Assembly: GCA_023664605.1 (NCBI GenBank)
Contig: JAMPFF010000010.1
Location: 13,174-77,173, forward strand
DNA: 64,000 nucleotides
Origin: Clostridium sp.
GTDB lineage: Bacteria > Bacillota > Clostridia > Lachnospirales > Lachnospiraceae
Direction: 5' to 3'
Shown: positions 43,349-57,525 of the stretch, one piece after another
Layout: every line of letters begins with the position of its first letter
Numbering within the stretch: position 1 is the first letter of the stretch
Notes under the pieces: generated by a model
The model's input: only the letters and a program-made list of their open reading frames with translations
What the model was told of the DNA's origin: nothing
Database searches by the model: none
Made by a program: the position numbers and the translations under genes

Positions 43349-43386
43349 TTCTTTTTAACCTCTACTCTTTCTGTTGCAATAAATTG

Positions 43387-44340
43387 TTACATTTCTATTT
43401 CTTTCCTAAACTCATCCAGCGCATTCTCATACGCCGCCGTGTCTATATAATAGCTTTCCGCATGTGCGGCGCCCGCTACTATCAACTTTTTCTTCGGCGC
43501 GCTGCAGTTATTGTAAATTTCCTCACACATACTGCACGGCACAAAGGTATCGGCGTCCCCGTGAATCATAAGAATGGGAACAACCGCTTTTTGCACTTCT
43601 CGCGCTGCATTGCACTCATCCATACCGTATCCTGCTTTTTTTCGGTTTACATAATCTGCTATCTGCATCAGCGGAAACGCCGGTAAATGATACATGGAAT
43701 GCAGTACATGCGTAAAAACCTCTTTCGGTGAAGTAAAACCGCAGTCCGATACAATCCCCTTGACCTGACCGGGAAGTTTTAGACCGCTTGCCATTAAGAC
43801 CGTCGCTCCGCCCATGGAGGTGCCATGCAGAAGAATCTCTACATCTTCGCCGCATGTTTCGATTACCCATGCAATCCATTGAAGCGCATCCTGCCTGTCC
43901 AGACAGCCGAAACCGATATAGTCGCCCTCGCTCTGTCCGTGCGCCCTCTCGTCCACCAAAAGCATCGCATAACCGTTATGTAAATAATAACCTGACAGTC
44001 CAATATAGTCTTTCATGCCCTCGCTTGTATAGCCGTGAAAGCAAATGACAAGTTTCTTACTTTTTTCGTTCGGAAAATAAACCCCATGCAGTTTCAAACC
44101 ATCAAACGATTGGCAATATACATCTTCGTGGGGCTGTGCGAGCATATATTCCTTACGCTCCCCGATAAAGGGCATATGCCTACTCCAATCGGTTCCCGCC
44201 ATTTTTATCGTCCGCTCTGTTTTTGCTTTCCCACGCTTCATTGTCCTTCTATAAAAATATGCCGCTTCCGCTATCTGCGCCGTCGCTATCACGCCCGCCG
44301 CTCCGGCTGCTGCCATTACGCCTTTTAAAGCCTTTTTCAT
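43387..44340 (-). CDS. Alpha/beta hydrolase
   Basis: FHGY, HGTSMGG (GxSxG), HGDAD, GAAHAES. Confidence 0.9.
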   Translation of the reverse strand: MKKALKGVMAAAGAAGVIATAQIAEAAYFYRRTMKRGKAKTERTIKMAGTDWSRHMPFIGERKEYMLAQPHEDVYCQSFDGLKLHGVYFPNEKSKKLVICFHGYTSEGMKDYIGLSGYYLHNGYAMLLVDERAHGQSEGDYIGFGCLDRQDALQWIAWVIETCGEDVEILLHGTSMGGATVLMASGLKLPGQVKGIVSDCGFTSPKEVFTHVLHSMYHLPAFPLMQIADYVNRKKAGYGMDECNAAREVQKAVVPILMIHGDADTFVPCSMCEEIYNNCSAPKKKLIVAGAAHAESYYIDTAAYENALDEFRKEIEM

Positions 44341-44373
44341 ATAATAACCATGCCTTTCTCCCTATCCGATACG

Positions 44374-44706
44374 TTACTTCTTCTTACTGTCAATCAGGCT
44401 CTTTAATTTCAGCGCCTTATCAATATTGCCCTCTACCTTTAATTTCTGCAAGGTAACCGCCATTATCGGGTCCTGCTCTCCTGAAGCAATTTTCATCAAC
44501 GTCTCCGCTTTCGCCGTAAACATGGCGTCTCTGTCGAAATATTCATAGGGCTCCACATACAGCTTGCCGTCTTTTACCTCTACATAAAAAATGCCCTCAG
44601 CCTCACCGATAATATTGAACTGATAAGCCAGATGCTCCGTCACGTCGCTGACGTCCGCCTCCATAAACTGATTTTTTACCTGTGCGAAAAATTCCGCATA
44701 TGTCAT
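44374..44706 (-). CDS. SCP2 sterol/lipid-binding domain protein
   Basis: QDPIMAVTLQKLKVEGNIDKAL typical of the SCP2 C-terminus. Confidence 0.85.
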   Translation of the reverse strand: MTYAEFFAQVKNQFMEADVSDVTEHLAYQFNIIGEAEGIFYVEVKDGKLYVEPYEYFDRDAMFTAKAETLMKIASGEQDPIMAVTLQKLKVEGNIDKALKLKSLIDSKKK

Positions 44707-44828
44707 ATCTTTATCCTCCCTCTTTTTGACAAAAATCGACCGCTAGTCGAATTAGTGTTATCATTAGATTATCACTATTCCGACCAGCGGTCAACTAATA
44801 AATTCGGATTGTATCGGGCTTTTATCAT

Positions 44829-45125
44829 TTATAAATCGCTCTTCTTGTACCCAATCTCCACCTTTTCATTTTTCTTCTGAATTTCCGCTAACATCTGTTT
44901 CACGATATCTTTCGAGGTCGCTTCTACCTTAATCAGTTCATCCTCTGTCGTTTTCAGCATTAAAAAGAACATATCAAAGCTCGCCACGCCGCAGCAAAGC
45001 CTGCCGTTTACTTCCTCGATTCTAAGATATGCCTGCCGGACGGCTTCATACGGCAGCGTATACCATTTAAAACCTTTCTTATATGCAATTTCACTGTCTC
45101 TTAAATGAATCTTCTTATCTTCCAT
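44829..45125 (-). CDS. Hypothetical protein
   Basis: 98-aa ORF with GGAGG upstream; contains LCCG. Confidence 0.65.
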   Translation of the reverse strand: MEDKKIHLRDSEIAYKKGFKWYTLPYEAVRQAYLRIEEVNGRLCCGVASFDMFFLMLKTTEDELIKVEATSKDIVKQMLAEIQKKNEKVEIGYKKSDL

Positions 45126-45243
45126 ATAATTTCATACCTCCCGTTTCGATTGTCAGTGTTTCAAACCAGTAAAAAAGTAACGCCGCAATAGCTGCTATCA
45201 AAAAAATGAAAAAGCCTTTCAACACTTTTTTCACATAATGCAT
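45115..45243 (-). CDS. Small single-TM membrane protein (42 aa; below the ORF-track cutoff)
   Basis: GGAGG-6nt-ATG; MHYVKKVLKGFFIFLIAAIAALLFYWFETLTIETGGMKLYGR; overlaps the next ORF by 11 nt. Confidence 0.55.
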   Translation of the reverse strand: MHYVKKVLKGFFIFLIAAIAALLFYWFETLTIETGGMKLYGR

Positions 45244-45276
45244 AAAATGCCTCCATCCCCATTTTCATCATAATAT

Positions 45277-45310
45277 AAAACGACACAGCCGATTCGCAAC
45301 TGTGCCGTTT
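45277..45310 (-). terminator. Intrinsic terminator after the lipoprotein gene
   Basis: Minus strand AAACGGCACAG...CTGTGTCGTTT followed by TAT. Confidence 0.6.
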
Positions 45311-45324
45311 AGAATTATTGCTAT

Positions 45325-45999
45325 TTACTGTTGTAATAAAGCGTTTAATGCCTCGATATCAAAAAGGTCTGTCTCAAACGCAACAACATCCGCTGAGTTC
45401 GGCTGCCATAACTGGTCTTTTATCTCTACTTTGATGGTTGCCGTTGTCGGCGCGTCATAAGTTACATTTGCCAAAGCGCTGTTAAAGCTGTCAACATAAG
45501 CCGCAAACAATTTTTCTTTTAACTCGTCTTTGGAGGGCCTCTCCGCTGCGTTCAATGATTCCAATTCAGCTTCCAAGCTTTCCACTGCGTCTATATATGC
45601 CTGAATTGCCGGTGCAAACGCGTTAATCTGCTCATAGGAAACAGTTACTACATAAGAACCGTCATCCTGTTTCTCAGCGCCCTCAACCGTATATTTTGTT
45701 TTACCATAAATATCTTTCATGATTTCCTCAACCTGCACACGCTGCTCATCAGAAACCGGGCCTGCGCCTGATATTTCGATTAAGCTATCCACTTCGCCGC
45801 TTAAAGCTGTTTCATAAATTTCTGCCGCTTCTTCAGTAGTGCCGATTTTCATAGATACGAATTTGGTGGAATCATTTTTATAAGAGTTATCCAAAATTGC
45901 GCTGATATAGCCTGCCGCATCGAAAGACGCTCCACAGCCTCCCAGGAAAGCAGCCAGCATAACGCATACTAATATCACTGATAATTTTTTCATTTTCAT
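45325..45999 (-). CDS. Hypothetical lipoprotein
   Basis: Likely start MKMKKL; lipobox LGGC. Confidence 0.8.
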   Translation of the reverse strand: MKMKKLSVILVCVMLAAFLGGCGASFDAAGYISAILDNSYKNDSTKFVSMKIGTTEEAAEIYETALSGEVDSLIEISGAGPVSDEQRVQVEEIMKDIYGKTKYTVEGAEKQDDGSYVVTVSYEQINAFAPAIQAYIDAVESLEAELESLNAAERPSKDELKEKLFAAYVDSFNSALANVTYDAPTTATIKVEIKDQLWQPNSADVVAFETDLFDIEALNALLQQ

Positions 46000-46107
46000 T
46001 TCTGAATCCTCCCACATTTTGCCCGTGTACTTTAATGAATAAATCATCCAGAGAATAAATCTATCAGGCTTTGAGGGGTTTGTCAATAGGTTTTTGCTAT
46101 TTTCAGG

Positions 46108-49100
46108 TTATGCAATTTCCTCAGAATTTCGTTTGATATTCTCCACTACTTCCATAATTTGTTTCGCAGTTTTCATATCATCCTTGAACAAAGTTGTAAT
46201 ACTGCCTACTGACCTGAACGGTTCTTCCATAAGCACTTTATTATCATCAATATTTCCGTTCGCAACAATATAATCTACAATAAGATTAACAAAACGTATC
46301 TGATTAATATTCAAACGCTCTTCTTTAAGGAATTCACTAAACGCTTCATTTACAGCAGTTCTATCTACTCCAATAATCCGGCGGACAAGCCTGCCGACAG
46401 GTGTATCCCCATATTCTTTTACATAGTCTTCTTTAGATCCAAGTTCCTGCCATAAAATACGTTCCAGTTCTTTAAGGTCACTTTCGGATAATTGCTTATT
46501 GTTCCTAAGTTTATATACAGAAATCCTATCACTATGTTCTTTTAAATAGAATTCAACTTTTTTACGATAATTCTGTAAATCACTGCTATCATAAATCGGC
46601 TCACCCTTAGCTGCATCAACAATAGTATCAGCAAAATTGGTATAATAAACCCTTTGTACAATCTTATCCAAATATTGCAGCAGTTCACGCATAGCTACCC
46701 TCACCGTATCAAGTTCCATAATCGTTGCCTGCTCCCAAAACTCTGCCTGCTGTACTCTCTCAATAACTTCTCTCTGTTCTGCCACCTGCGGGATTGCATA
46801 CTTTGCAGACAAACGCTGTGCCGTTTGGATTACAATATTGACAGGCGTTTGGATTTTCTTACTTTGCAGTATTCCTAAGTCAATACTATATATCAGATAA
46901 TCAAAACGTCTCGCAAGTTCATCTTCCTTTTTAGGTTTCACAAGCGGCGCAATATGTTCCTTAATCTCCGAAATCTCAACAGACTCAAGATTATTCCAGC
47001 TAGAACGGCTGCGATACATTTCAACATATCTCAAATGTCTTTTTACCATAAAACTGCCATTATTTAATTCCATAACTGATTGGTGCAAATCATCTGCCAA
47101 ATTGTTTCTATAAGAAACATAATATTCATCAGTCATAAAAGATGAAGACTGTAGTTCCCGACAAATCTGTGCCTTTATATTATAAATTTTCTCACACAGT
47201 GTTTCCTGGATGCCGGTTTCGCTGCCGTTTTTATTCACTCTGAAATACTCAAAATTATTGCAAAAATCAAAAATTAAAAATCTTTCTTTATCAATTCCTT
47301 CTCCCAGCAAATTCGGACATAGCCTTGTTCCTCTGCCAATCATCTGCCAAAACTTTGCATAACTTCTGACTTTTTTAAAAAACACCAAGTTCAAAATTTC
47401 CGGGATATCAATCCCAGTATCAAGCATATCTACAGATACTGCAATCTGTGGCATTGTATTTTTTATGCTAAAATCATCTATCAAAGAATCACAATACTTA
47501 ATACTATAATCAATCTGCTTTATAAAATCCCCGCCGCATTCCGGAAATAAAACGTTAAACCTCTTTACAATAATCTGTGCATGCAGGCTGTTTTTGGCAA
47601 AGATAATTGTTTTACCAAGTTTATCTCCTCCTTCAATTTTAAGTCCTTTTTCCATAAGTTCTTTTAATACCTTATCAATGGTATCCGTATTAAAAAGCCA
47701 TGAGTTGATTGCAGAACTTGCAATATCATCTTCAATTGCCTCATCCTCTCCGAAAGTTTCCTCATATTCCTCTTTTTCTTCATCCGATAAATCATCATAA
47801 TGAATGCCATCTTCCATGATTTTGGTCTTATACTCAAGGGTTGAATAAGTAACCAGATACCCTTCCTCAACAGCTTTTTCCAATTCATACGCGAAAGTAG
47901 GCACGCCTCTTTCAAGGTCAAAGATACTATATGTATTTTTATCAATTTCATTTTTAGGTGTTGCAGTCATACCCAAGAGCAGAGCATCAAAGTATTCAAA
48001 AACCTCCCGATATTTTCTGTAAATAGAGCGATGAACCTCATCACAGATAATCAAGTCAAAATGGCCCGGACTGAACAATCTTTCTCCAAACTTATTTTTC
48101 TTCTCATCAATTGCATTCATCATCGTCGGATAAGTAGAAAAAATCATGCGGGAAGACTCCGGGTCATCTTTGCTGTCCAGCAGATTACAACATGGCAAAT
48201 CACTAAGCAGATTTGTATAACTGTTCTTTGCCTGTCTCACTAAGGCAGTTCTGTCCGCCAAAAAAAGAATATTTTTCACGTAATTATGACGTCTTAATAC
48301 ATCTACCACACTGATACTTACTCTTGTTTTACCAGAGCCAGTTGCCTGTACAATAAGCATTTTTCTATGTTTTTTAGCAATAGCATCACAAACAGCAGTA
48401 ACCGCTTCTTTCTGATACGGACGATTCGTAATAGCATCACTGATTTCTATATTCTCTAATGGTTTACGCTGCTTTCTTCTATCAATTTCTAATTGCAATT
48501 CATTCTGTGTAAAAAATCCCGAAACCTCCCGGCTGGCATATCCCATATAATCATTCGTATAAAAAAACTCAAATCCGTTTGTCGTATAAATCAAAGGCCG
48601 TCTGCCATATCGATTTTGCATACAATCAGCATAAAGTTTTGCCTGCTGATTTCCGACCATTGCATTAACAGAGGCTTTCTTTGCCTCAACCACCGCAAGA
48701 GGAAGATTATCCTTTCCCCACAGTACATAATCTACATAACCAATTTTTGTACTATTAGGCATCCCTGTAACAGGCTCTTCAACCGTGCAGTTTCTTCCGA
48801 TAATCCAACCGGCTTCCTGTAATTCCACATCAATATACTTCTTTCTCGTTTCTGCTTCACTAATTGTATCTATATGGAATTCTCTTGTCTGGGTATGATG
48901 CTTACGTTCTTCGGTCATTTGCCTGCGAAGGCTCTCATTTTCCTTAAGAACTTCCGCAAGTTTTTTATCTTTACTGCTTAAATTCTCATATAATAATTTT
49001 AATTCATCCGCCTTTATGCGTTTTTCGTCTCCAGATGATAAAATTGATTCATCAAAAGTTCTTTCTTCATACTCCTTGGAATAAGAATAGTCAATCCAAT

Positions 49101-49458
49101 CACAAAATTCAAAGAGATCCCTTAAGGCAATAACAGCCTCATCTCTTTTTATATTACTATTTGTATGAACAGCAACATTTCCGAGGTGAATCGTATATTT
49201 TAACATAGGAAAAAGCCGCGGTTCAATGATATCGCGAAATGTCCGTTCATGAATCAGGCTGGAAACATTATCCTGATAGGGCAGTTTCAATTCCGCATCA
49301 TAAGAATATACAAACCGCACTGCCAGTTCCAAAGCACGTCTTGATAATATAGCACAGGTTGCCGGAGAAATAGCAATACTCTTTTCCGCTTCCACTGCCT
49401 GCACGGCAAAATCTGCATATTCCTTTTTTTCTAATAAATAGTCAAAGTTAGTCTCCAT
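46108..49458 (-). CDS. hsdR: Type I restriction enzyme R subunit (N-terminal DUF4145-like region)
   Basis: YVDYVLW...VVEAKK nuclease motif, QATGSGKT, DEVH, MTATP, SVDMLDTGID, QMIGRGTR. Confidence 0.95.
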   Translation of the reverse strand: METNFDYLLEKKEYADFAVQAVEAEKSIAISPATCAILSRRALELAVRFVYSYDAELKLPYQDNVSSLIHERTFRDIIEPRLFPMLKYTIHLGNVAVHTNSNIKRDEAVIALRDLFEFCDWIDYSYSKEYEERTFDESILSSGDEKRIKADELKLLYENLSSKDKKLAEVLKENESLRRQMTEERKHHTQTREFHIDTISEAETRKKYIDVELQEAGWIIGRNCTVEEPVTGMPNSTKIGYVDYVLWGKDNLPLAVVEAKKASVNAMVGNQQAKLYADCMQNRYGRRPLIYTTNGFEFFYTNDYMGYASREVSGFFTQNELQLEIDRRKQRKPLENIEISDAITNRPYQKEAVTAVCDAIAKKHRKMLIVQATGSGKTRVSISVVDVLRRHNYVKNILFLADRTALVRQAKNSYTNLLSDLPCCNLLDSKDDPESSRMIFSTYPTMMNAIDEKKNKFGERLFSPGHFDLIICDEVHRSIYRKYREVFEYFDALLLGMTATPKNEIDKNTYSIFDLERGVPTFAYELEKAVEEGYLVTYSTLEYKTKIMEDGIHYDDLSDEEKEEYEETFGEDEAIEDDIASSAINSWLFNTDTIDKVLKELMEKGLKIEGGDKLGKTIIFAKNSLHAQIIVKRFNVLFPECGGDFIKQIDYSIKYCDSLIDDFSIKNTMPQIAVSVDMLDTGIDIPEILNLVFFKKVRSYAKFWQMIGRGTRLCPNLLGEGIDKERFLIFDFCNNFEYFRVNKNGSETGIQETLCEKIYNIKAQICRELQSSSFMTDEYYVSYRNNLADDLHQSVMELNNGSFMVKRHLRYVEMYRSRSSWNNLESVEISEIKEHIAPLVKPKKEDELARRFDYLIYSIDLGILQSKKIQTPVNIVIQTAQRLSAKYAIPQVAEQREVIERVQQAEFWEQATIMELDTVRVAMRELLQYLDKIVQRVYYTNFADTIVDAAKGEPIYDSSDLQNYRKKVEFYLKEHSDRISVYKLRNNKQLSESDLKELERILWQELGSKEDYVKEYGDTPVGRLVRRIIGVDRTAVNEAFSEFLKEERLNINQIRFVNLIVDYIVANGNIDDNKVLMEEPFRSVGSITTLFKDDMKTAKQIMEVVENIKRNSEEIA

Positions 49459-49525
49459 GGATACCCGCCTTTTTACATTTGTATCTTTATCTTTTATCTG
49501 TGTTCTGGTAAAATCCTGTCATTTT

Positions 49526-50131
49526 TCAAAGGCTTTCCGTTTTATATACTGAATAGCCTTCATAATAATAACTGTAGTCAATACCTTTCATATATACTTC
49601 GCGGTCATCGACTTTATCGGTCAACGCACTTTTTAATAGACATTTTATCTCCGTGTCCTTAATCGGACTTCTTTCCATTGCCAGTAAGTAATCATCCTTA
49701 TCAATCTTACTCCAGTCAACCACCATGTGAAGTTCCTGCTTCATCATCAAATCCAGCCATATCCGCACGCTTCTGCCATTTCCTTCACGGAAAGGATGCG
49801 CCACATTCATTTCAACATATTTTGCAACAATCTCATCAAAGGTCGATTGGGGCATTTCCTCAATATTTCTAAGCGCATCATTCAAATACATAACCGGTAC
49901 AAATCTAAAATTCCCCTTTGCAATATTAACATTTCTTATCTTGCCTGCAAAATCATAAATTTCTTCAAAAAGAAACTTGTGTATCTTTAAAAGACTATCC
50001 AGCGTACCGGCTTTCAAAGTATATAAATATCCGTTTTCAAATAATAAAGCCGCTCTCTTTTTACTGATTTTTTCTTCTACCCGGGCAAGTTCCGAGGAAT
50101 CGGTTATATTAAATTGATTTTCAAGCGACAT
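49526..50131 (-). CDS. Class III Fic-domain AMP transferase
   Basis: HPFREGNGRSVR catalytic loop plus C-terminal inhibitory SYYYEG, as in Neisseria NmFic. Confidence 0.9.
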   Translation of the reverse strand: MSLENQFNITDSSELARVEEKISKKRAALLFENGYLYTLKAGTLDSLLKIHKFLFEEIYDFAGKIRNVNIAKGNFRFVPVMYLNDALRNIEEMPQSTFDEIVAKYVEMNVAHPFREGNGRSVRIWLDLMMKQELHMVVDWSKIDKDDYLLAMERSPIKDTEIKCLLKSALTDKVDDREVYMKGIDYSYYYEGYSVYKTESL

Positions 50132-50146
50132 AACAGCCTGCCTTTC

Positions 50147-50206
50147 CTATATTTCAATAATCATATCGCAAACGGATTGCTTGGGCATCCTATCTTTATT
50201 ATCCAT
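50147..50206 (-). pseudogene. Probable remnant of a HEPN/DUF86 toxin gene (19 codons)
   Basis: ATG overlaps the MNT stop (ATGGATAA) with the coupling expected for the partner gene; MDNKDR start then stop after 19 aa. Identity is inferred from context. Confidence 0.4.
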
Positions 50207-50498
50207 AAATCACCATTCCACTCTGCTTAATTTCCTTGTCAATTTCTGAATTTGGAATAATCTGTGATACATCAAACAAATCAACATTTTTTTCCAAAGA
50301 TGTCACAACATCTTCAAGCAATCCAAAAAAAGCAAGTCCTTTTAACCCACTATCAACCATAATATCAATATCGCTCTGCTCTTTTGCAAATCCCTTTGCA
50401 TAAGAACCAAAAAGAATTGCCTTTTTTACATTATAATCAGAAAATATTGGCTGCAATATCATCTGTATTTGTTGTATTGTATATATTTTATTCTGCAT
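50199..50498 (-). CDS. Minimal nucleotidyltransferase (MNT, antitoxin-type)
   Basis: ILFGSYAKG...SDIDI; about 99 aa from MQNK. Confidence 0.88.
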   Translation of the reverse strand: MQNKIYTIQQIQMILQPIFSDYNVKKAILFGSYAKGFAKEQSDIDIMVDSGLKGLAFFGLLEDVVTSLEKNVDLFDVSQIIPNSEIDKEIKQSGMVIYG

Positions 50499-50556
50499 AA
50501 TATCTCCTATTGTCCCAAGCATTATTACATAAAGTTCAACTATAACTTTTGAAATA

Positions 50557-50835
50557 TCAGCAATAATATGTTATTTCTCCAAAAAAATCAATCCATTTTT
50601 GAATTACTTCACTGCTACGGGCTTCAATAATTCTCATAATATTACGCAATACTTTGGGAGGTATGCTAGAATTATTATGTGCCAGCAAACATTTTCCGGA
50701 AGCTGTAATCCATACTTTGGTTGCGCTTTCCGATGGGTTTCCTTCTGAGATATGCACATGAACAGGTTCATTTGGTCTGCCCTCATTTGCCCAAAAATAT
50801 ACCCAATAAGAACCAATTCTAAAAACCTGAGGCAT
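50557..50835 (-). CDS. DUF4160-family protein
   Basis: MPQVFRIGSYWVYFWANEGRPNEPVHVHI. Confidence 0.8.
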   Translation of the reverse strand: MPQVFRIGSYWVYFWANEGRPNEPVHVHISEGNPSESATKVWITASGKCLLAHNNSSIPPKVLRNIMRIIEARSSEVIQKWIDFFGEITYYC

Positions 50836-51088
50836 TCATAAATCCCCCTTCTTTTGAAAACTCAATTATCAAATGTGCCGTAGACTTGATAATATCCATA
50901 AAATAATTAACTTCATCTTCTGAATATCCATTAATTTCCATACGATAGGATGGCAAATAGCAGGTCATACTATGAAAACAATCTCTTTCATTGGGCGTTT
51001 CAATATAAACCTTTACCTCACCATTTTCTAATTGTTCTGAATGGACAATCTCCGTATTATCTTCTAACGTCATAAATGGATACATCAT
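50819..51088 (-). CDS. Small acidic hypothetical protein coupled to DUF4160
   Basis: Likely start MMYPF after GGAG; overlaps the DUF4160 start by 17 nt. Confidence 0.75.
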   Translation of the reverse strand: MMYPFMTLEDNTEIVHSEQLENGEVKVYIETPNERDCFHSMTCYLPSYRMEINGYSEDEVNYFMDIIKSTAHLIIEFSKEGGFMNASGF

Positions 51089-51122
51089 AACTACTTCTCC
51101 TTCCAATTACCAGATTATTTTT

Positions 51123-51331
51123 AAGTGATTGCAACACCCTGTTTTTCAAAACGTCCGTTGTGTAATATAGACAAATCAACGCAGGCACGCTCGCGCTGCT
51201 TGTCGCTCACAGCGGTGCTAAGCTCGAAAAAACCTCGCTAAGCGCCGGTGGCTCCAAAGCACCTTGCTTATGATATTGTCTATATTACGCAACTAGATTT
51301 TGAAATTACGCATTTTCACAATTACCTGACT
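51123..51331. repeat. Nested palindromic intergenic element C
   Basis: IR GTTGTGTAATATAGACAAATCA (51157-51178)/TGATATTGTCTATATTACGCAAC (51271-51293), outer TTTCAAAA/TTTTGAAA; right end reverse-complements to TCAGGTAATTGTGAAA, like the end of element B. Confidence 0.7.
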
Positions 51332-51340
51332 AAATTATTC

Positions 51341-52498
51341 CTACCCGAAATATTTCTGCATCAAAGAATCCATCAAGGTCTGGGTTTCATCTAAGGATTT
51401 TTGTATTTCAAGTTTCAGTTTGTCTACTTGACGGACAAATGCGGCAAATTGGTTTTGGATATCTATAGGCGGCATAGGAACTTTAAATTTTCTGAACTCT
51501 CCCATTGATACTCTTGGCATTTTTGCTCCAGCAACTTTTTTATTAATCATATTTACAAATTCATCACTTCTCAGCATAAAGGCTAAATACTCACGATTTA
51601 TTTTTGACATCACTGGCTGCAATGAAACCAATTCTGATGTGGCATAACCACATCTATCCGGAATTACAACTTTATTTAAATATGGTCTAAGTTTTGAATA
51701 CAACACATTGCTCGTATCAAATGTACATGTAGAATTTCCAACTTTATTTTTAGATACTATTAAATAATCTATTATTCTTCCTGTCTGTGCTTCTACCATA
51801 TCAAGATTTAATAACCACACTTTATCTTCAAAATCACCTGAATAATTTATTGCTGGAGCAACATCATTCATTAACTCTGTTTTCCATCCTTTAGAATTAG
51901 AAACAGGGTAACCAAACATTTCCACAAACCGGGATTTGATTAAAAGATTAAATTCTTGAATCTGCTTTTTATACAAAGAAATTAACCCATTTGTTCTGTC
52001 TAATATCTCAACAACTTCTTTTTGCTCTACTAACTCAGGCAGATTTATTTTAATTTTCTTTAAATCAGAAACCGCAAAACTAGCTTGATTCACTGACTTT
52101 TTTGTAATTCTCATAATTTGTTCTTTAAAAATATAAGAAGAAAAATAATATTTTGCATATTTTGGATTCATTAAAGAAGAATTAGCTTTAAGTCTTAATA
52201 AATTCATTCCGTGAATTATTTTCTCATTTCCCATTTTTTCATATAATACAGTTCTTCCTAAATACTGAATACTATTAATATGCGACATTAATAAATCACT
52301 GTCTTCAAGCACATACGAAGCATATTTATCCAAATTATCAATTCCAGCATATCCCATTTTATCACGGTTAAATTGATTATTAGATATTGTTTCAATTCGA
52401 GTAATTGGATATCCTCCCTCCATAACACCTTGTTTTATATTTGCCCCATTTTGAATATGATAAAAACATTCTTCAACAGTTTTTATTTTCATTTTCAT
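51341..52498 (-). CDS. hsdS: Type I R-M specificity subunit (two TRDs)
   Basis: Conserved regions LPELVEQKEVV...KSRFVEMFG and PPIDIQNQF...SLMQKYFG flank two variable TRDs. Confidence 0.93.
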   Translation of the reverse strand: MKMKIKTVEECFYHIQNGANIKQGVMEGGYPITRIETISNNQFNRDKMGYAGIDNLDKYASYVLEDSDLLMSHINSIQYLGRTVLYEKMGNEKIIHGMNLLRLKANSSLMNPKYAKYYFSSYIFKEQIMRITKKSVNQASFAVSDLKKIKINLPELVEQKEVVEILDRTNGLISLYKKQIQEFNLLIKSRFVEMFGYPVSNSKGWKTELMNDVAPAINYSGDFEDKVWLLNLDMVEAQTGRIIDYLIVSKNKVGNSTCTFDTSNVLYSKLRPYLNKVVIPDRCGYATSELVSLQPVMSKINREYLAFMLRSDEFVNMINKKVAGAKMPRVSMGEFRKFKVPMPPIDIQNQFAAFVRQVDKLKLEIQKSLDETQTLMDSLMQKYFG

Positions 52499-52527
52499 TT
52501 TCTCGCATCCCCACAAATCGGAATTTC

Positions 52528-52662
52528 CTATAATATAGCAAATGTCTCTTTCTCTAACAACGTTTTTGCATCATAACAAACAATTTTACCATCTTCAAAA
52601 TATACATATACTGTATATTCTTCCGTTGGAACTACCTGAACTATTTTAGGGAACATACTCAT
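52528..52662 (-). pseudogene. Truncated DUF2442-like gene (44 aa)
   Basis: Manual translation MSMFPKIVQVVPTEEYTVYVYFEDGKIVCYDAKTLLEKETFAIL-stop; the N-terminus fits the DUF2442 pattern (V.P...Y...v.F.DG) and the C-terminal half is missing. Confidence 0.6.
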
Positions 52663-52994
52663 CCTCACAAATCTTTTTCTTGACACCATTCATTATATCA
52701 CATATTATATATCAAAATAAGCGGTTTTTACCGTATGGTCTCTTAGGCATCAAATAACGTACTCGCTTCTTTTTAGTAGAATATATATATTATACTATAT
52801 TTTATTTATTAATAATAGCTATCTTTCTAATATTGGCACTATAACAGTATGGACTTTCCAATATCGGTTTTATATTGACAAGAAAACTAGCAGCAGGCAG
52901 AAAAAGAAAATTGACAGATAATATCAATACATGATAACATGAATATAAGGGTGAGTGTCTCTTTATTATTCACAAAAATTTCACAATTTGTTCG

Positions 52995-53023
52995 TTGATT
53001 GTTCTTTTAAATCAGCATATAAT
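52995..53023 (+). promoter_or_regulatory. toxIN promoter
   Basis: TTGATT-17-TATAAT directly upstream of the repeat array. Confidence 0.8.
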
Positions 53024-53031
53024 AAAATATA

Positions 53032-53165
53032 AGAAATCAGTGTGATTTCTATAGCGGTGAGTTTCTACCATTATAAATGAAACATTAAAATAGCGTGTGA
53101 TTCCCCACCAGCAAGAGGGAAATGAAAATAGCGTGTGAGCCTACACCACAAAAAAAGGAATAAAA
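53032..53165 (+). ncRNA. toxI: Type III antitoxin RNA (ToxI-like): 5' hairpin plus three 38-39 nt pseudoknot units
   Basis: Units start with ATAGC at 53051, 53090 and 53128; each has S1/S2 H-type pseudoknot pairings; located between the promoter and terminator upstream of toxN. Confidence 0.85.
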
Positions 53166-53167
53166 AT

Positions 53168-53197
53168 AAGGAGCTGGCATAAGTCAGTTCCTTTTTT
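53168..53197 (+). terminator. Intrinsic terminator between toxI and toxN
   Basis: AAGGAGCTGGC-ATAA-GTCAGTTCCTT-TTTT (11-bp stem with two G-U pairs). Confidence 0.88.
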
Positions 53198-53215
53198 ATA
53201 CATAGGAGAAACATT

Positions 53216-53710
53216 ATGAAAATTTACAGAATAAAAGATGAGTATATTGCATTTTTAAGAACTAAAGATTCAAAGGTTTTGACCAATAAAGAAGAACGGC
53301 GTCCCTATGTTGGCATTGTATACTCAATCAATAACTTAAATTATTACATACCATTAACTTCGCCTAAACCAAAACATAAAAAAATGAAAAACACAAAAGA
53401 TTTCCATAAAATAAAAAATGGCGAATACGGAGCAATTAATTTTAATAAAATGCTTCCAGTAAAAGAAGAATGTATAGTGGAATTTAATTTTAAAAATGAG
53501 CAAGATAAAAATTATAGAATGCTTCTACAAAATCAATATAAAGAAATTAGTGCTTTAGAAGATATAATTAAGAAAAAGGCTGAAAATATATATAAACTCT
53601 TCCATACTGATGATTCAGAATTAACAAAAGCAGACTTATCTGTAAAAAATAGATGCTGTGATTTTGATTTATTAGAACAAATGTGCGTGAAATATAGAGA
53701 ACGTCCTTAA
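53216..53710 (+). CDS. toxN: Type III toxin endoribonuclease, ToxN/AbiQ family
   Basis: MKIYRIKDEYIAFLR.KDSKV...RPYVGIV...YYIPLTSPK...AINFNKMLPV; AGGAG RBS. Confidence 0.92.
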   Translation: MKIYRIKDEYIAFLRTKDSKVLTNKEERRPYVGIVYSINNLNYYIPLTSPKPKHKKMKNTKDFHKIKNGEYGAINFNKMLPVKEECIVEFNFKNEQDKNYRMLLQNQYKEISALEDIIKKKAENIYKLFHTDDSELTKADLSVKNRCCDFDLLEQMCVKYRERP

Positions 53711-53732
53711 TTGTACTAAATATAATGCAACA

Positions 53733-53765
53733 ATAAAGGGAACCGCAAAATGAGCCTCCCTTTAT
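53733..53765. terminator. Hairpin between convergent toxN and hsdM
   Basis: ATAAAGGGA...TCCCTTTAT, 9-bp IR. Confidence 0.55.
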
Positions 53766-53790
53766 AAGTATGAGGACTATCCCACTTTCC

Positions 53791-55250
53791 CTACTCCTCA
53801 AGTAATTTTTTCAATTCAGCCATCTGTGTCTGAATCTGTGTTTCAATCTGCTCTATGCGGTTGATAATCACAGCCGGAGAGTCATATTCCACCTTTTCAT
53901 ATACAACCTCTTTATATTTATTGATAGAGAGGTCATAATCGTTTGACACAATTTCTTCTAACGGTACAAAAAAGCTTTGTTCCGTCCTTGCTCTGTCAAC
54001 TTCGCCATTTAGATTATGGAATCTGCTTATAATGTCAGGAATATCACAGTCCGCTGTCTCCTGCCTTTTATCATCCAGACTGTAGCCATCCGCTTTCATA
54101 TCGTAAAACCATACCTTATCAGTACCGCCGGAACCGGTCTTGGTAAACACAAGGATTGCCGTCGAAACTCCTGCATATGGCTTAAACACGCCGCTGGGCA
54201 TGGAAATAACTGCATCCAGTTTATGCCGGGTCAGTATTTCCTTTCTAATCTCTTTATGTGCGTTACTGCTGCCAAACAATACCCCGTCCGGTACAATAAC
54301 TGCCGCTCTTCCGCCCTTTTTCAAAATACGCAAAATAACGCAAGAAAAAGCAATTCTGTCTTTTTGGTCTTAGTAACTTTCAGTAAATCAGCGGATACCG
54401 CCTCATAATCAAGACTTCCTTTAAAAGGCGGATTGGCAAGTACCAATGTATATTTTTCCGTATCCGTATTCTGTTCAGACAGGCTGTCTCTATAAGAAAT
54501 ATCCGGATTATCAACGCCATGTAAAAGCATATTCATAGCGCCGATACGGAGCATCGTTCTATCCATATCATTGCCATAAAACATATCATTATTAAAATGG
54601 TTCCGCAGTTTTGCATCAAAAAACATATCTGCATGATTTTCTCGAAGATACTGCTGCGCTTCAATCAAAAATCCCGCGCTTCCCATAGCCGGATCAATAA
54701 TAATATCATCTGGCTGTGGTTTTACCAACGCCACCATCATCTTAATAATATGTCTTGGCGTCCTAAATTGACCGTTTGTGCCCGCTGTCGCGACTTTTGA
54801 CAATAAATATTCATATAAATCGCCTTTGGAATCTTCCTCACCGAGGTCTAATCTGTCGATTCCATCTACAATCTTAGACAGCATGGCTGCGGTGGGAATC
54901 TTAAAAATGGCATCACCCATATAACGTGCATATGCGGAATCTCCGTCCTGATGCAGATTTTTAATAAACGGGAATACCCCGTTAGCCACAATCTCATACA
55001 TTTCTTCGGCAGAGCCTAAATTCTTAAATTTACTCCATCTGTATTTCTGGCATTCACCCGGAAACATAGATTCAAACGGCACTCCAAGGAAATTGCTCTC
55101 ATTCTCTTTTGTCGTCTCTACCTCGTCCAGCTGTTTAATAAACAGCAAATAAGTAAACTGTTCAATCACATCTAGCGGATTCGTAATCCCGCCAGTCCAG
55201 AAAGTCTCCCATATTCTATCAATTCTATTTCGTATCTCGCCTGTAATCAT
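53791..55250 (-). pseudogene. hsdM: Type I R-M m6A methyltransferase, split by a 1-nt frameshift
   Basis: ORFs 54321-55286 (MITGEI..., DPAMGSAG, NPPF) and 53791-54333 (RILKKGGRAAVIVPDGVLFG) join in frame if one T is added to the T4 run at 54332-54335. Confidence 0.88.
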
Positions 55251-55381
55251 ATTGTTCTCCATATTTATAGTGTTTCTGCTTGGCAAGCCACACTTATACT
55301 TTTATTCACCAGAAAAATTTATTTGTTTAAAAATGCAGTTATATATAATTTATTGTAACACACCCTTACATAGATTTCATC

Positions 55382-55423
55382 AAAAAGAAAAATCGGTTCA
55401 TTTTTGCTCAAAACAAACCGATT
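55382..55423 (-). terminator. Intrinsic terminator after prfA
   Basis: Minus strand AATCGGTT...AACCGATT followed by TTTCTTTTT. Confidence 0.75.
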
Positions 55424-55437
55424 CCTTACAATTATTT

Positions 55438-56511
55438 TCAACTTTCTCCCATTTTAGCTAACTTCGCCGCCTGGTCGGCTGCTATGCAGGCGTCCAGTAT
55501 CTCCTGGATATCCCCGTTCATCACCTTATCCAGCTTATACAATGTCAGGTTAATTCTATGGTCGGTCACGCGCCCCTGCGGGAAGTTATAAGTTCTGATT
55601 TTCTCGGAACGGTCGCCGGTTCCAATCTGGCTTTTCCGAAGTTCCGCTTCCGCATCATGCGCTTTCTGCTGCTCGATATCGTATAATTTTGCACGCAGAA
55701 GCGCAAATGCTTTCGCTTTGTTCTGGAGCTGTGACTTCTCCGTCTGGCTGTATACGACGATGCCCGTCGGATAATGCGTCAGCCGCACCGCTGAATCCGT
55801 CGTATTGACGCACTGGCCGCCGTTTCCGGAAGCGCGCATAACGTCGATTCGGATATCTTTTTCATCAATCTCCACATCCACTTCCTCCGCCTCCGGCATG
55901 ACCGCCACCGTAATTGTGGAAGTATGGATACGCCCGCCGGACTCCGTTTCCGGTACACGCTGTACACGATGTACACCGCTTTCATATTTTAATACGGAAT
56001 AGGCTCCCTGCCCCGTTACCATGAAAGTAACGCTTTTCATGCCGCCGATGCCGATTTCCTCCACTTCCGCAGTCTCCACTTTCCAACGTCTGCTCTCCGC
56101 ATAATGCACATACATACGGTAGATTTCCGCCGCAAATAATGCCGCCTCATCGCCTCCGGCTCCGGCGCGGATTTCCACGATAACGTTTTTATCATCATTC
56201 GGGTCTTTGGGAAGCAGCAAAATCTTTAGCTCATGCTCCAGTTCCTCGATTCTTTTCTTGGATGCGGCAAGCTCCTCTTTTAGCATCTCCCGCATTTCTT
56301 CGTCCGACTCGCTGTCTAACATAGCCAAGCTGTCTTCCACGTCCTGATTGCACTTCCGGTATTCTTTATAAGCGTTCACGATAGGCGTAAGGTCGCTCTG
56401 CTCTTTCATCAGCGCGCGAAAACGCTCCTGATTATTCGCCACGGAAGGCTCGCTCAATTCATTCATAATCTCTTCAAATTTTCTCAGTAAATCATCTAAT
56501 TTATCAAACAT
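55438..56511 (-). CDS. prfA: Peptide chain release factor 1
   Basis: PET motif (RVPETE), [12 protein letters not shown]; start MFDKL. Confidence 0.96.
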
Positions 56512-56647
56512 CCTAATTTCCATGCCTTTCTTTCAACCTGCGGCTTCTATAGGCTAAAGCGCTAACAGTGCTAAAACAATATCCGCAGAACAATACATTT
56601 TTCAACCTAATCTCTATTCTAAAACACGCTGTCATAAGACATTGCCG

Positions 56648-57505
56648 TCAAGGCTTCGTTCCATACACGACTCTGTCGAGTCCTGCAAAATCCTTTACAA
56701 CTTCCACTTCTTTATATCCTGCCACCGTCATTATCTCTTTTACGGCTTCTCCCTCATCATATCCGATTTCAAAAAAAAGCATCCCGCCACCGGTCAGATA
56801 ATCACCCGCCTGTTCTATGATGCGGCGGTAAAAATACAGACCGTCCTCTTTTCCGTCTAACGCAAGGCGCGGCTCAAACTCCCGCACTTCCGGCATCAGT
56901 GTATCAATGACGCTGCTCTGTATATAAGGCGGATTAGAGACAATAATTTCAAATGTATCAGCTTCCGTAAGCGGCTCAAATAAATCGCCCTGTAAAAAGG
57001 ATACCCGGATATCTTCTTTTAAGTTCCTGATTTTTTCGGCGTTTTTTTCTGCAGTTTGCAGCGCGCTTCCGGAAATATCTATGCCCAGCCCCGTGCAGTC
57101 GTTGGAATAATACAAAAGACTTAACAAAATACAGCCCGAACCGGTACACATATCCAAAATGCGCATACCATCATGCAGATGCCGCATTACTTCCTCCACC
57201 AGTATCTCCGTATCCTGCCGCGGTATGAGGACATTCCCGTCTACGAAAAACGGCAACCCCATAAACTCCTGGATACCGGTGATATATTGCAACGGCCTGC
57301 GCGTCTTTCTTTCAGCAATATAGTTTACATAACATTCTTTCTCTTTTACCGAAACTTCCCGTTCCCCATGCGCTAACAGTGTGTTTCTATCCGTTTTACA
57401 TACCGCTTCCAGCAGCAACCGGGCATCCGTTTCCGCTTCTGGAATATCGGCTTGTTGCAACTGTGACACACCCCATTCATATGCCTGCCTGTAATTCCAT
57501 TTCAT
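56648..57505 (-). CDS. prmC: Release factor glutamine methyltransferase
   Basis: LIPRQDTE, LDMCTGSG, SNPPY. Confidence 0.95.
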   Translation of the reverse strand: MKWNYRQAYEWGVSQLQQADIPEAETDARLLLEAVCKTDRNTLLAHGEREVSVKEKECYVNYIAERKTRRPLQYITGIQEFMGLPFFVDGNVLIPRQDTEILVEEVMRHLHDGMRILDMCTGSGCILLSLLYYSNDCTGLGIDISGSALQTAEKNAEKIRNLKEDIRVSFLQGDLFEPLTEADTFEIIVSNPPYIQSSVIDTLMPEVREFEPRLALDGKEDGLYFYRRIIEQAGDYLTGGGMLFFEIGYDEGEAVKEIMTVAGYKEVEVVKDFAGLDRVVYGTKP

Positions 57506-57525
57506 GCCTGCCGCTCCGTTATTTT

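What the first reader, a model, noticed from the sequence alone, without database searches (positions are those of the whole stretch)
46108..55300. Type I R-M operon used as a scaffold for toxin-antitoxin cargo
The order is hsdM, [toxIN, inverted], [DUF2442 fragment], hsdS, [element C], [small ORF-DUF4160], [MNT, HEPN scar], [Fic], hsdR, all in AT-rich DNA inserted after the prfA terminator with no integrase (seen). At least four TA-related modules interrupt a normally contiguous hsd operon. Inference: the conserved hsd genes act as recombination anchors for exchanging defence cassettes, layering abortive infection onto restriction.
Basis: partly seen in the sequence, partly recalled or inferred. 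Interest (0 to 1): 0.62.

Follow-up and report, generated by a model that had tools for sequence, protein, structure and literature searches.

The report
Restriction operon carrying swappable toxin-antitoxin cargo
A type I restriction-modification operon in an uncultured gut Lachnospiraceae genome carries five toxin-antitoxin-type modules between its three genes, and related operons carry quite different cargo; the pattern is real, but it is already published as "defence genes embedded in restriction operons".

Summary
Window 46108-55437 is a 9.3-kb AT-rich island between the prfA terminator and a lipoprotein promoter, with no integrase.
- hsdM
- antisense toxIN
- a DUF2442 remnant
- hsdS
- a dispersed repeat ("element C")
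- orf89-DUF4160
- MNT plus a 19-codon HepT scar
- a class III Fic
- hsdR

Four same-genus genomes have prfA directly next to the lipoprotein gene, so they show the empty site.

I compared 39 homologous hsd loci, including the window.
- The hsdM-to-hsdR interval runs from 1.2 to 8.0 kb, in 32 different architectures.
- The cargo falls into about 45 families, including RhuM, Zeta, SieB, AbiJ, TIR, GmrSD, Mrr, NERD, PIN and HipA-like genes.
- Sixteen loci also carry an hsdS shufflon recombinase.

The "scaffold for exchangeable cargo" reading is therefore supported by comparison, but the recombination mechanism is not shown.

This copy is partly decayed:
- hsdM has a 1-nt frameshift, seen at about 4x coverage; a near-identical strain has it intact.
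- HepT is deleted.
- DUF2442 is truncated.

The concept is already published (PrrC; rlo genes; TgvAB; DarTG2; Payne et al. 2024, "guilt by embedding"). This is a new member of a known kind, of modest interest.

The parts
55388..55426 (-). prfA intrinsic terminator; left edge of the island
   Evidence: 17-pair stem followed by a T run, directly after the prfA stop at 55438. In empty-site relatives the terminator region is followed directly by the lipoprotein promoter.
55352..55380 (-). promoter-like site upstream of hsdM
   Evidence: ATGAAA-17-TACAAT with an extended TG. This is a consensus match only.
54321..55286 (-). hsdM, 5' part (HsdM_N plus the first half of N6_Mtase); the likely true start is near 55250-55262
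   Evidence: Pfam HsdM_N 5e-14 and N6_Mtase 6e-34 covering profile positions 3-148. PADLOC MTase_I 5e-113. Relatives start at MITGE....
54325..54335 (-). 1-nt frameshift in a T run that splits hsdM
   Evidence: The sequence reads ...GCGTTATTTTGCGTATTTTGA, whereas relatives read ELLFLALFLR(I/T)LKKGG in one frame. The X1 contig (the probable source sample, about 4x depth) has the same form. An X2 contig 98.6% identical has one extra base after 54331.
53791..54333 (-). hsdM, 3' part
   Evidence: Pfam N6_Mtase 2e-28 covering profile positions 172-305. PADLOC MTase_I 1e-74.
52775..53785 (+). toxIN (AbiQ-type, type III TA) cassette, antisense to the operon: promoter 52995-53023, toxI repeats about 53046-53165, terminator 53168-53193, toxN 53216-53710
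   Evidence: ToxN_toxin 3e-49 and AbiQ 5e-42. Repeats are shown, and the promoter and terminator. The cassette fills the gap between two blocks syntenic with L019. Homologous cassettes with three 38-nt repeats occur in non-hsd contexts (L118, L119).
52528..52689 (-). DUF2442 (DhiA-like antitoxin) remnant, 53 aa instead of 91-92 aa
   Evidence: Pfam DUF2442 7e-5. tblastn shows 83-84% identity to the N-terminal half of full-length genes in L019 and L093, and those genes match DUF2442 at 5e-9.
51341..52516 (-). hsdS, full length with two target-recognition domains
   Evidence: Methylase_S with two stretches. PADLOC Specificity_I covers residues 27-390 of a 392-position profile.
51123..51331 (.). 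element C: a roughly 200-nt dispersed, strongly structured repeat with nested terminal inverted repeats, inserted between hsdS and orf89
   Evidence: Five diverged copies (73-81% identity) lie on other contigs. The alignment and fold (-70 kcal/mol) are. Relatives have only 14-27 nt between hsdS and orf89. No Rfam match.
50819..51088 (-). orf89, a conserved hypothetical protein coupled to DUF4160 by a 17-nt overlap
   Evidence: No Pfam or PADLOC match. More than 1,300 homologous clusters exist. The pair with the same overlap recurs both inside and outside hsd operons. The AF2 model has pLDDT 84 and no PDB fold match.
50557..50835 (-). DUF4160 (DhiT-like toxin domain)
   Evidence: Pfam DUF4160 3.5e-16. 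The DUF4160/DUF2442 pair is listed as the predicted TA pair dhiTA of Dickeya dadantii in PMC8198452 and cited as a novel TA system in PMC12065111.
50199..50522 (-). orphan MNT (MntA-type nucleotidyltransferase antitoxin)
   Evidence: Polbeta 4e-12 and NTP_transf_2 5e-9. PADLOC PDC-S09. The GS...DID motif is visible in the translation.
50147..50206 (-). HepT (HEPN toxin) scar, 19 codons
   Evidence: Translation MDNKDRMPKQSVCDMIIEI*. The ATG overlaps the MNT stop, as in the intact MNT-HepT pair of L130, whose HepT starts MENKD. Homology to relatives' Fic blocks starts at 50144-50154.
49526..50131 (-). class III Fic AMP-transferase (catalytic loop HPFREGNGR, C-terminal inhibitory SYYYEG)
   Evidence: Fic 1.5e-13. 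E. faecalis Fic 5nv5 4e-81 and NmFic 1e-63. PADLOC PDC-S04 3e-100.
46108..49458 (-). hsdR, 1116 aa and intact
   Evidence: ResIII, SWI2_SNF2, HSDR_N and EcoEI_R_C. REase_I 2e-169. Same length as relatives, with no internal stops.
46058..46086 (-). promoter of the flanking lipoprotein gene; right edge of the island
   Evidence: TTGACA-17-TAGATT. It starts 23 nt after the hsdR stop and is conserved in empty-site relatives.

Best explanation
Window 46108-55437 is a chromosomal defence island. It consists of one type I restriction-modification operon (hsdM-hsdS-hsdR, with an EcoEI-type C-terminal domain on HsdR). It is inserted between the prfA terminator and the promoter of a lipoprotein gene.

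Both inter-subunit gaps serve as landing places for small, self-contained toxin-antitoxin or abortive-infection cassettes:
- In the M-S gap: an antisense toxIN/AbiQ cassette with its own promoter and terminator, and the remnant of a DUF2442 antitoxin gene.
- In the S-R gap: orf89-DUF4160, an orphan MNT with a 19-codon HepT scar, and a self-inhibited class III Fic.

The same-strand cargo has short gaps or overlaps, so it is probably read through from the hsd promoter (inferred).

Across related Lachnospiraceae the hsd genes are conserved while the cargo turns over. The turnover occurs by replacement, deletion and hsdS-shufflon rearrangement (shown by comparison). The most likely route is homologous recombination in the conserved hsd sequences and hsdS repeats that flank the gaps (inferred, not shown).

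This copy is in decay. hsdM carries a 1-nt frameshift, so neither methylation nor restriction is expected, because HsdR needs the M2S complex. HepT and half of DUF2442 are deleted, and the shufflon recombinase with its second hsdS, present in close relatives, is absent. The parts most likely still active are toxIN, Fic and orf89-DUF4160.
For: - Gene identities.
- Empty site: prmC-prfA-lipoprotein are adjacent in four same-genus genomes (G001, G023, G018, G005). The lipoprotein promoter begins 23 nt after the hsdR stop.
- Same prfA site: L019, L024 and L053 have prmC-prfA-hsdM.
- Variable interval: hsdM end to hsdR start runs 1238-7976 bp in 39 loci. There are 32 architectures, 29 loci carry non-hsd cargo, about 45 cargo families are present, and 27 of those occur in one locus only. 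Mean Jaccard index of cargo is 0.045.
- Cargo types: defence or TA genes, namely RhuM, Zeta, SieB, AbiJ, CAP12-TIR, HipA-like, YhcG, NERD, GmrSD, Mrr, PIN_8, DUF4258/YokU, MNT/HepT and DUF3800.
- Closest relative: L018 (95.4% nt over 10 kb) is collinear up to 50154, 23 nt before the fic ATG, and then has an hsdS' copy instead of MNT. A 16x contig in run X2 shows the same break.
- Block ends against L019: 53786 (5 nt past the hsdM stop), 52774, 51329-51457 (hsdS 3' end), 50546-51101 (orf89-DUF4160) and 49490 (32 nt before hsdR).
- Cassettes occur independently of hsd: toxIN in L118 and L119, orf89-DUF4160 after a PPDK gene, and Fic without nearby hsd genes in 73 of 80 loci.
- Frameshift.
- Published precedent.
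Against: - No recombination event is observed directly; anchoring on the hsd genes is inferred from where homology blocks end.
- Part of the variability is the ordinary hsdS/recombinase shufflon (16 of 39 loci), not cargo exchange.
- Fic-hsdR is a stable block in the closest relatives (window, L018, L020, L062), so not all cargo is mobile on this timescale.
- The genome is a bin at about 4x depth. The frameshift could be a sequencing or assembly error. The toxIN junctions (52572-53112 and 53573-53902) are not covered by independent contigs.
- No transcription or phenotype data exist.
Confidence: 0.78

Rival explanations
1. Passive accumulation. The cargo are selfish addiction modules that inserted one by one, by their own or illegitimate recombination, into a horizontally acquired AT-rich region where insertions are tolerated. 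The hsd genes play no part as anchors, and there is no selected layering of defences.
For: - toxIN, orf89-DUF4160 and Fic all occur mostly outside hsd operons.
- Two modules are dead remnants and hsdM is broken.
- A dispersed repeat, element C, has also landed in the operon.
Against: - The same two gaps are filled in 29 of 39 homologous operons, almost exclusively with defence or TA-type genes.
- Block ends fall within a few nucleotides of the hsd gene ends.
- orf89-DUF4160 sits directly after hsdS in two unrelated type I families.
- Embedding is statistically frequent in published surveys.
Confidence: 0.25
2. Functional coupling of the PrrC type. Some cargo (Fic immediately upstream of hsdR, orf89-DUF4160 immediately after hsdS) is held silent by the R-M complex or senses it, and fires when a phage anti-restriction protein disables the complex.
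For: - Fic-hsdR is a conserved block in the window, L018, L020 and L062, with a remnant in L019.
- Fic occurs in the M-S gap of L024 and L093.
- orf89-DUF4160 follows hsdS in this family and in an EcoR124-type family.
- PrrC/EcoprrI is the precedent, and Fic/RhuM linkage to R-M operons has been noted.
Against: - Only 7 of 80 close Fic homologues lie within 6 kb of detectable hsd genes.
- orf89-DUF4160 also stands alone.
- Class III Fic proteins carry their own inhibitory helix.
- In this copy hsdM is broken yet Fic and DUF4160 are retained intact. That would be lethal or pointless if they depended on the M2S complex for silencing.
Confidence: 0.1
3. Assembly artefact. At about 4x metagenomic depth, pieces from different strains or organisms were joined, so the crowded operon does not exist as such in any one cell.
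For: - Depth is only 2-5x.
- The toxIN junctions lack independent contig support.
- An X3 contig diverges from the window 12 nt beyond the hsdM stop.
- Many relatives' contigs break just upstream of hsdR.
Against: - Logan contigs of X1 match at 100% across the fic/MNT, orf89/element C and hsdS/DUF2442 junctions.
- Synteny with L019 (hsdM, DUF2442, hsdS, orf89, DUF4160, hsdR) and with L018 (fic, hsdR, lipoprotein and 6 kb of flank) supports the backbone.
- toxIN fits exactly between two syntenic blocks.
Confidence: 0.05

Closest known systems
Genes embedded in type I R-M, BREX, DISARM and Hma loci ("guilt by embedding"; Payne, Hughes, Fineran, Jackson 2024, bioRxiv 10.1101/2024.01.29.577857)
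   Same: Cargo genes are flanked on both sides by genes of one defence system. The cargo differs among homologous host systems and consists largely of known or candidate defence genes. Fic matches PADLOC PDC-S04, MNT matches PDC-S09 and ToxN matches AbiQ.
   Different: This is one particular Lachnospiraceae hsd family, with both gaps filled, one antisense type III TA, two decayed modules and a frameshifted hsdM. orf89 is in no catalogue searched.
DarTG2 between hsdS and hsdR in EPEC (RptR island, PMC12255303), and TgvAB in the VPI-2 type I R-M of Vibrio cholerae (PMC11411939)
   Same: A toxin-antitoxin or restriction module sits in the hsdS-hsdR gap of a type I operon. The authors call this gap a potential recombination hotspot.
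   Different: Those islands carry one experimentally active module and an intact R-M system. Here there are five modules, none tested, there is no RptR-type regulator, and the R-M system is probably inactive.
PrrC/EcoprrI and the Campylobacter rlo (restriction-linked ORF) genes; HEPN, RhuM and Fic/Doc genes in R-M operons (PMC2610378, PMC3710099)
   Same: Abortive-infection-type toxins are inserted inside hsd operons. RhuM and Fic linkage to R-M is explicitly noted.
   Different: No ABC-ATPase/HEPN anticodon nuclease is present. There is no evidence that the R-M proteins silence the cargo, and Fic is rarely hsd-linked.
Phase-variable hsdS shufflons with a tyrosine recombinase, some carrying a TA pair (pneumococcal ivr/cod and tvr loci; PMC7672463, PMC6265443)
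   Same: 16 of 39 related loci have recombinase plus extra hsdS copies, with cargo lying between the hsdS copies.
   Different: The window itself has one hsdS and no recombinase. It looks like a derivative that has lost the shufflon.
ToxIN/AbiQ type III toxin-antitoxin systems
   Same: ToxN/AbiQ-family endoribonuclease preceded by tandem 38-39-nt repeats and a terminator.
   Different: The three repeats differ from one another, and the same three variants are kept in L119. The relative L118 has three identical repeats. No Rfam model matches.

Membership tests
Type I restriction-modification system | HsdM with HsdM_N and a complete N6-adenine methyltransferase domain in one reading frame | tested here: not met
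   Both halves are present, but they are split by a 1-nt frameshift at 54325-54335. A near-identical strain has the gene intact. At 4x depth an error cannot be excluded.
Type I restriction-modification system | HsdS with two target-recognition domains, and HsdR with nuclease and SF2 motor domains | tested here: met
   Methylase_S twice; ResIII/SWI2_SNF2/HSDR_N/EcoEI_R_C; PADLOC Specificity_I and REase_I 2e-169.
Embedded defence cargo in an R-M operon (guilt by embedding) | Non-system genes flanked on both sides by genes of the same system | tested here: met
   Gene order. Cargo is present in both the M-S and S-R gaps.
Embedded defence cargo in an R-M operon (guilt by embedding) | Cargo varies among homologous host operons | tested here: met
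   32 architectures in 39 loci; mean Jaccard index 0.045.
Embedded defence cargo in an R-M operon (guilt by embedding) | Cargo confers anti-phage protection | not testable with these tools
   There are only family matches to AbiQ, PDC-S04 and PDC-S09.
ToxIN/AbiQ type III TA | ToxN/AbiQ-family toxin | tested here: met
   PF13958 3e-49 over the full length; PADLOC AbiQ 5e-42.
ToxIN/AbiQ type III TA | Tandem repeat array upstream on the same strand, separated from the toxin gene by a terminator | tested here: met
   Three 38-39-nt units at about 53046-53165 (71% identity between units 2 and 3). Terminator at 53168-53193. Homologous arrays in L118 and L119.
ToxIN/AbiQ type III TA | The RNA repeats are processed by the toxin and neutralise it | not testable with these tools
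   No RNA data are available.
Class III Fic AMP-transferase (NmFic/EfFic type) | Catalytic loop HxFx(D/E)GNGRxxR | tested here: met
   HPFREGNGRSVR in the translation, aligned to EfFic 5nv5.
Class III Fic AMP-transferase (NmFic/EfFic type) | C-terminal inhibitory helix (S/T)xxxE(G/N) in the same polypeptide | tested here: met
   SYYYEG at residues 186-191, aligned to the same motif of EfFic.
MntA-HepT (MNT-HEPN) TA | MNT with a GS...DxD motif | tested here: met
   FGSYAKGFAKEQSDIDI; Polbeta and NTP_transf_2.
MntA-HepT (MNT-HEPN) TA | Adjacent HepT toxin with an Rx4-6H motif | tested here: not met
   Only 19 codons remain. Intact partners of 112-135 aa exist in L019, L057 and L130.
DhiTA (DUF4160 toxin / DUF2442 antitoxin) | DUF4160 gene followed by a DUF2442 gene | tested here: not met
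   DUF4160 is preceded by orf89, which has no family and no fold match. The only DUF2442 sequence is a truncated gene on the other side of hsdS. The canonical pair is present in L093.
PrrC-type R-M-silenced anticodon nuclease | ABC-ATPase fused to a HEPN nuclease, always linked to hsd | tested here: not met
   No such gene is in the island.
Phase-variable hsdS shufflon | Tyrosine recombinase plus additional hsdS copies | tested here: not met
   Absent from the window. Present in 16 of 39 relatives.
Integrase-borne genomic island | Integrase and flanking direct repeats | tested here: not met
   No integrase ORF lies between 46108 and 55437, and no convincing flanking repeat was found.

The most novel reading that the evidence does not exclude
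Some of the cargo may not be a passenger but may be wired to the restriction complex, as PrrC is to EcoprrI.

The class III Fic is kept as a block directly upstream of hsdR in the nearest relatives. The uncatalogued orf89-DUF4160 pair sits directly after hsdS in two unrelated type I families. Either could monitor the state of the HsdMS(R) complex and intoxicate the cell when a phage anti-restriction protein disables it.

orf89 would then be a new kind of partner for the DhiT-like DUF4160 toxin.
Probability: 0.1. Interest if true: 0.6.

Novelty: new member of a known kind. Interest (0 to 1): 0.3.

Why it matters
The locus is a clear, well-documented example of a type I restriction operon acting as a hot spot for small defence and toxin-antitoxin cassettes in gut Lachnospiraceae, a group with almost no experimental phage-defence work.

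The comparison set is 39 loci with about 45 cargo families, many without any annotation. It gives a ready list of candidate anti-phage genes. These include the very widespread orf89-DUF4160 pair and several unknown families (clusters c3, c13, c15, c18, c20).

It does not change the current picture. Embedding of defence genes in R-M operons, and the hsdS-hsdR gap as a hot spot, are already published.

Tried and rejected
- **Rfam.** I scanned 44000-58000 at E up to 1. There was no toxI model hit and nothing for element C, only a chance ylbH match inside hsdR.
- **orf89 fold.** The AF2 model is good (pLDDT 84), but Foldseek against the PDB gave no match at E up to 0.001. I therefore could not show that orf89 is a DUF2442-like or any other known antitoxin fold.
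- **Is Fic an obligate hsd associate?** It is not. Only 7 of 80 close homologues lie near hsd genes detectable with two type I query families, so the PrrC-like reading was marked down.
- **Co-transfer of the prfA 3' end with the island.** Identity to distant island-bearing genomes rises slightly toward the 3' end (72-75% up to 81%), and identity to same-genus empty-site genomes falls to 80%. This is too weak to use.
- **Flanking direct repeats or an att site.** I found only an 8-nt match (TGAAAATA), which I judged to be chance.
- **Independent contigs across the toxIN junctions.** Logan contigs of X1 and X3 do not cover them.
- **L019 as a simple ancestor.** I considered whether the window derives from an L019-like arrangement by deletion. 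The MNT genes are too different for this, with no nucleotide or tblastn match, so I rejected it as a simple derivation.

Full report
**What is in the window**

All genes are on the minus strand except toxIN. The order is:
- prfA (55438-56523);
- hsdM, split into 54321-55286 and 53791-54333;
- toxIN on the plus strand (toxN 53216-53710; PF13958 3e-49; PADLOC AbiQ);
- a 53-aa DUF2442 fragment (52528-52689);
- hsdS (51341-52516);
- a GC-rich repeat, "element C" (about 51123-51331);
- orf89 (50819-51088), overlapping DUF4160 (50557-50835) by 17 nt;
- MNT (50199-50522);
- a 19-codon ORF (50147-50206);
- Fic (49526-50131);
- hsdR (46108-49458; ResIII, EcoEI_R_C; REase_I 2e-169).

G+C is 0.26-0.43 inside the island against about 0.42-0.52 outside. 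A 17-pair terminator follows prfA, and a promoter-like site precedes hsdM. No integrase is present.

**The individual modules**

*toxIN.* It has a promoter-like site (TTGATT-17-TATAAT, 52995-53023), three 38-39-nt repeats (about 53046-53165), a terminator (53168-53193) and an intact toxN. The ToxN homologues found in public genomes carry the same layout outside any hsd operon. L118 has three identical 38-nt repeats. L119 has the same three non-identical repeats as the window. toxIN is therefore a self-contained cassette.

*Fic.* It is a class III Fic. It matches E. faecalis Fic (5nv5) at 4e-81 and NmFic at 1e-63. It has the catalytic loop HPFREGNGR and the C-terminal inhibitory motif SYYYEG, and it matches PADLOC candidate PDC-S04.

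*MNT and the HepT scar.* MNT keeps its GS...DID motif (PDC-S09). Its partner is reduced to MDNKDRMPKQSVCDMIIEI*. That ORF's ATG overlaps the MNT stop, exactly as in the intact MNT-HepT pair of L130, where MNT is 69% identical and HepT starts MENKD and runs to 117 aa.

*DUF2442 fragment.* It is 83-84% identical to the N-terminal half of full-length 91-92-aa DUF2442 genes in L019 and L093.

*orf89-DUF4160.* DUF4160/DUF2442 is listed as the predicted TA pair dhiTA of Dickeya dadantii in PMC8198452, and PMC12065111 cites that pair as a novel TA system. Here DUF4160 is instead preceded by orf89. orf89 has no family, more than 1,300 homologous clusters, a confident AF2 model and no PDB fold match. 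The orf89-DUF4160 pair, with the same 17-nt overlap, recurs between hsdS and hsdR of an EcoR124-type operon in Roseburia. It also stands alone after a PPDK gene.

*Element C.* It has five diverged copies on other contigs and nested terminal inverted repeats with a very stable fold. Relatives have only 14-27 nt at that position.

**State of the R-M system**

hsdM is split by a 1-nt deletion in a T run...GCGTTATTTTGCGTATTTTGA. Relatives read ELLFLALFLR(I/T)LKKGG in one frame.

The public runs that hold the sequence are low-depth metagenomes. In X1, the probable source at about 4x depth, a contig shows the frameshifted form. In X2, a contig 98.6% identical has one extra base after 54331, which restores the frame.

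The break is therefore either a recent strain-specific inactivation or a low-coverage error. If it is real, neither methylation nor restriction is expected, because HsdR acts only with M2S (established knowledge, restated in PMC11411939).

**The island and its site**

Four same-genus genomes (G001, G023, G018, G005) have prmC-prfA directly followed by the lipoprotein gene. The lipoprotein promoter (TTGACAAAC...GATAGATT) is conserved in these empty sites, and in the window it starts 23 nt after the hsdR stop. The island is thus the hsd operon with its cargo and nothing more.

The same prfA site is occupied by homologous hsd operons in L019, L024 and L053. Against these genomes:
- hsdM and hsdR are 78-81% identical at the nucleotide level;
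- prfA is 76-80% identical;
- the empty-site congeners are closer in prfA, at 83%.

Either the island is old and has been lost in part of the genus, or it moves by recombination in the flanks. I could not decide between these.

**Comparison of homologous operons**

A scan with HsdR gave 80 loci, nearly all Lachnospiraceae bins. Thirty-nine loci, including the window, hold hsdM and hsdR on one contig.
- The distance from the hsdM end to the hsdR start runs from 1238 bp (hsdS only, five loci) to 7976 bp.
- Clustering the ORFs in these intervals gives 32 distinct architectures.
- 29 loci carry non-hsd cargo, and 13 have cargo in the M-S gap.
- 16 loci have a tyrosine recombinase, and 19 have two or more hsdS genes.
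- There are about 45 cargo families, of which 27 occur once.
- Among the 20 loci with HsdR at least 69% identical, the mean Jaccard index of cargo is 0.045.

Pfam assigns the cargo to these types:
- MNT/HepT and NTase_sub_bind;
- RhuM, and a RhuM-Fic fusion;
- Zeta toxin, SieB, AbiJ, and a CAP12/Pycsar TIR;
- HipA-like kinase;
- YhcG, NERD, GmrSD-HNH, Mrr and PIN_8;
- DUF4258/YokU, DUF3800, DUF4238, an AAA_21 ATPase, an AAA-ATPase/PDDEXK_9 protein, and Schlafen-AlbA_2;
- several families with no match.

**Where the differences lie**

The nearest relative, L018, is 95.4% identical over window 40001-50154. That span covers the flank, hsdR and Fic. The identity stops 23 nt before the fic ATG, and beyond that point L018 has an hsdS' copy instead of MNT. 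The dominant related strain in run X2 (16x) shows the same break.

Against L019, homology falls into these blocks:
- prfA;
- hsdM, ending 5 nt after its stop;
- the DUF2442 leader and fragment;
- the 3' end of hsdS;
- orf89-DUF4160;
- the first 92 nt of fic, which is a remnant in L019;
- hsdR, from 32 nt upstream of its start.

toxIN (52775-53785) exactly fills the place where L019 has a RhuM-Fic gene.

In G002 (L013/L062) the unit orf89-DUF4160-recombinase-hsdS' is tandemly duplicated.

The picture is one of replacement and deletion at boundaries next to conserved hsd sequence. This fits recombination anchored in those sequences but does not prove it. Fic-hsdR behaves as a stable block in the window, L018, L020 and L062.

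**Are the cargo tied to hsd?**

Mostly not. toxIN homologues lie outside hsd operons. orf89-DUF4160 occurs both inside and outside them. Only 7 of 80 close Fic homologues have detectable hsd genes within 6 kb. This argues for independent cassettes that land in the hsd gaps, and against an obligate PrrC-like coupling.

**What is known**

- PrrC sits inside the EcoprrI hsd locus (PMC2610378).
- Anantharaman et al. list Abi2, AbiJ, ApeA, RhuM-like and Fic/Doc-like genes in R-M operons (PMC3710099).
- TgvAB is embedded in the VPI-2 type I operon, with reference to the Campylobacter hsd loci (PMC11411939).
- DarTG2 lies between hsdS and hsdR, and the authors call that gap a potential recombination hotspot (PMC12255303).
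- Payne et al. 2024 report that type I R-M, BREX and DISARM frequently contain embedded genes: 17,432 non-redundant genes in 3,231 families.
- Earlier notes of this scan list about 600 similar findings.

**Verdict**

In this copy the R-M system is probably off and two modules are relics.
- It is a new member of a known kind, of modest interest.
- Its main value is as a catalogue of candidate defence cassettes in Lachnospiraceae, including the uncatalogued orf89-DUF4160 pair.

Noticed in passing
window 53046-53165; L119 3835-3960; L118 3838-3955: The three toxI repeats differ from one another (units 2 and 3 are 71% identical). The same three variants are conserved in L119, whose ToxN is 74% identical. 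L118 (ToxN 59% identical) has three identical 38-nt repeats.
   Followed up: partly
window 51123-51331; genome contigs C15, C5, C11, C43, C73: Element C is a roughly 200-nt dispersed element with nested terminal inverted repeats and a very stable fold (-70 kcal/mol). Its core reaches summed contig depths of 47-2440 in four metagenomes, so it is abundant well beyond this genome. It has no Rfam match.
   Followed up: partly
L100 1235-1400; L101 1305-1390: In two empty-site relatives, the last 25-55 nt of prfA are tandemly duplicated around a GC-rich hairpin (GCCTGATCGGTTGATCAGGC). This is a possible footprint of insertion or excision at this site.
   Followed up: no
L013/L062 846-5318: A 2273-nt unit (orf89-DUF4160-tyrosine recombinase-half hsdS) is present twice in tandem upstream of fic-hsdR. 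It is either a real duplication or an assembly artefact of the shufflon.
   Followed up: no
L018 (JAMPCN010000088.1): The record is labelled Bacillus sp., but it is 95.4% identical over 10 kb to this Lachnospiraceae window, so the bin is probably mislabelled.
   Followed up: no
L021-L023, L025, L028-L030, L035, L039-L041 and others: Many relatives' contigs end 100-750 nt upstream of hsdR. This suggests that the repeated or variable hsdS region regularly breaks short-read assemblies, so embedded cargo is under-sampled in bins.
   Followed up: no
L014 9780-12263: An AAA_21 ATPase (513 aa) plus a 313-aa protein with no family match fill the hsdS-hsdR gap of the G030 operon. This looks like a two-gene ATPase-effector defence module.
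   Followed up: no
genome contig C19 1944-2408: A second ToxN paralogue (37% identical) is present elsewhere in the same genome.
   Followed up: no
L046 6682-7179 and homologues in L033, L036, L048 (cluster c3): A 151-165-aa protein with no Pfam match recurs in the S-R gap of four related operons. It is an uncatalogued recurrent cargo family.
   Followed up: no
run X3 contig at window 53779: A 97-98% identical strain's contig leaves the window sequence 12 nt beyond the hsdM stop, although toxIN pieces are also present in that run. The cargo junction may differ between co-occurring strains.
   Followed up: partly
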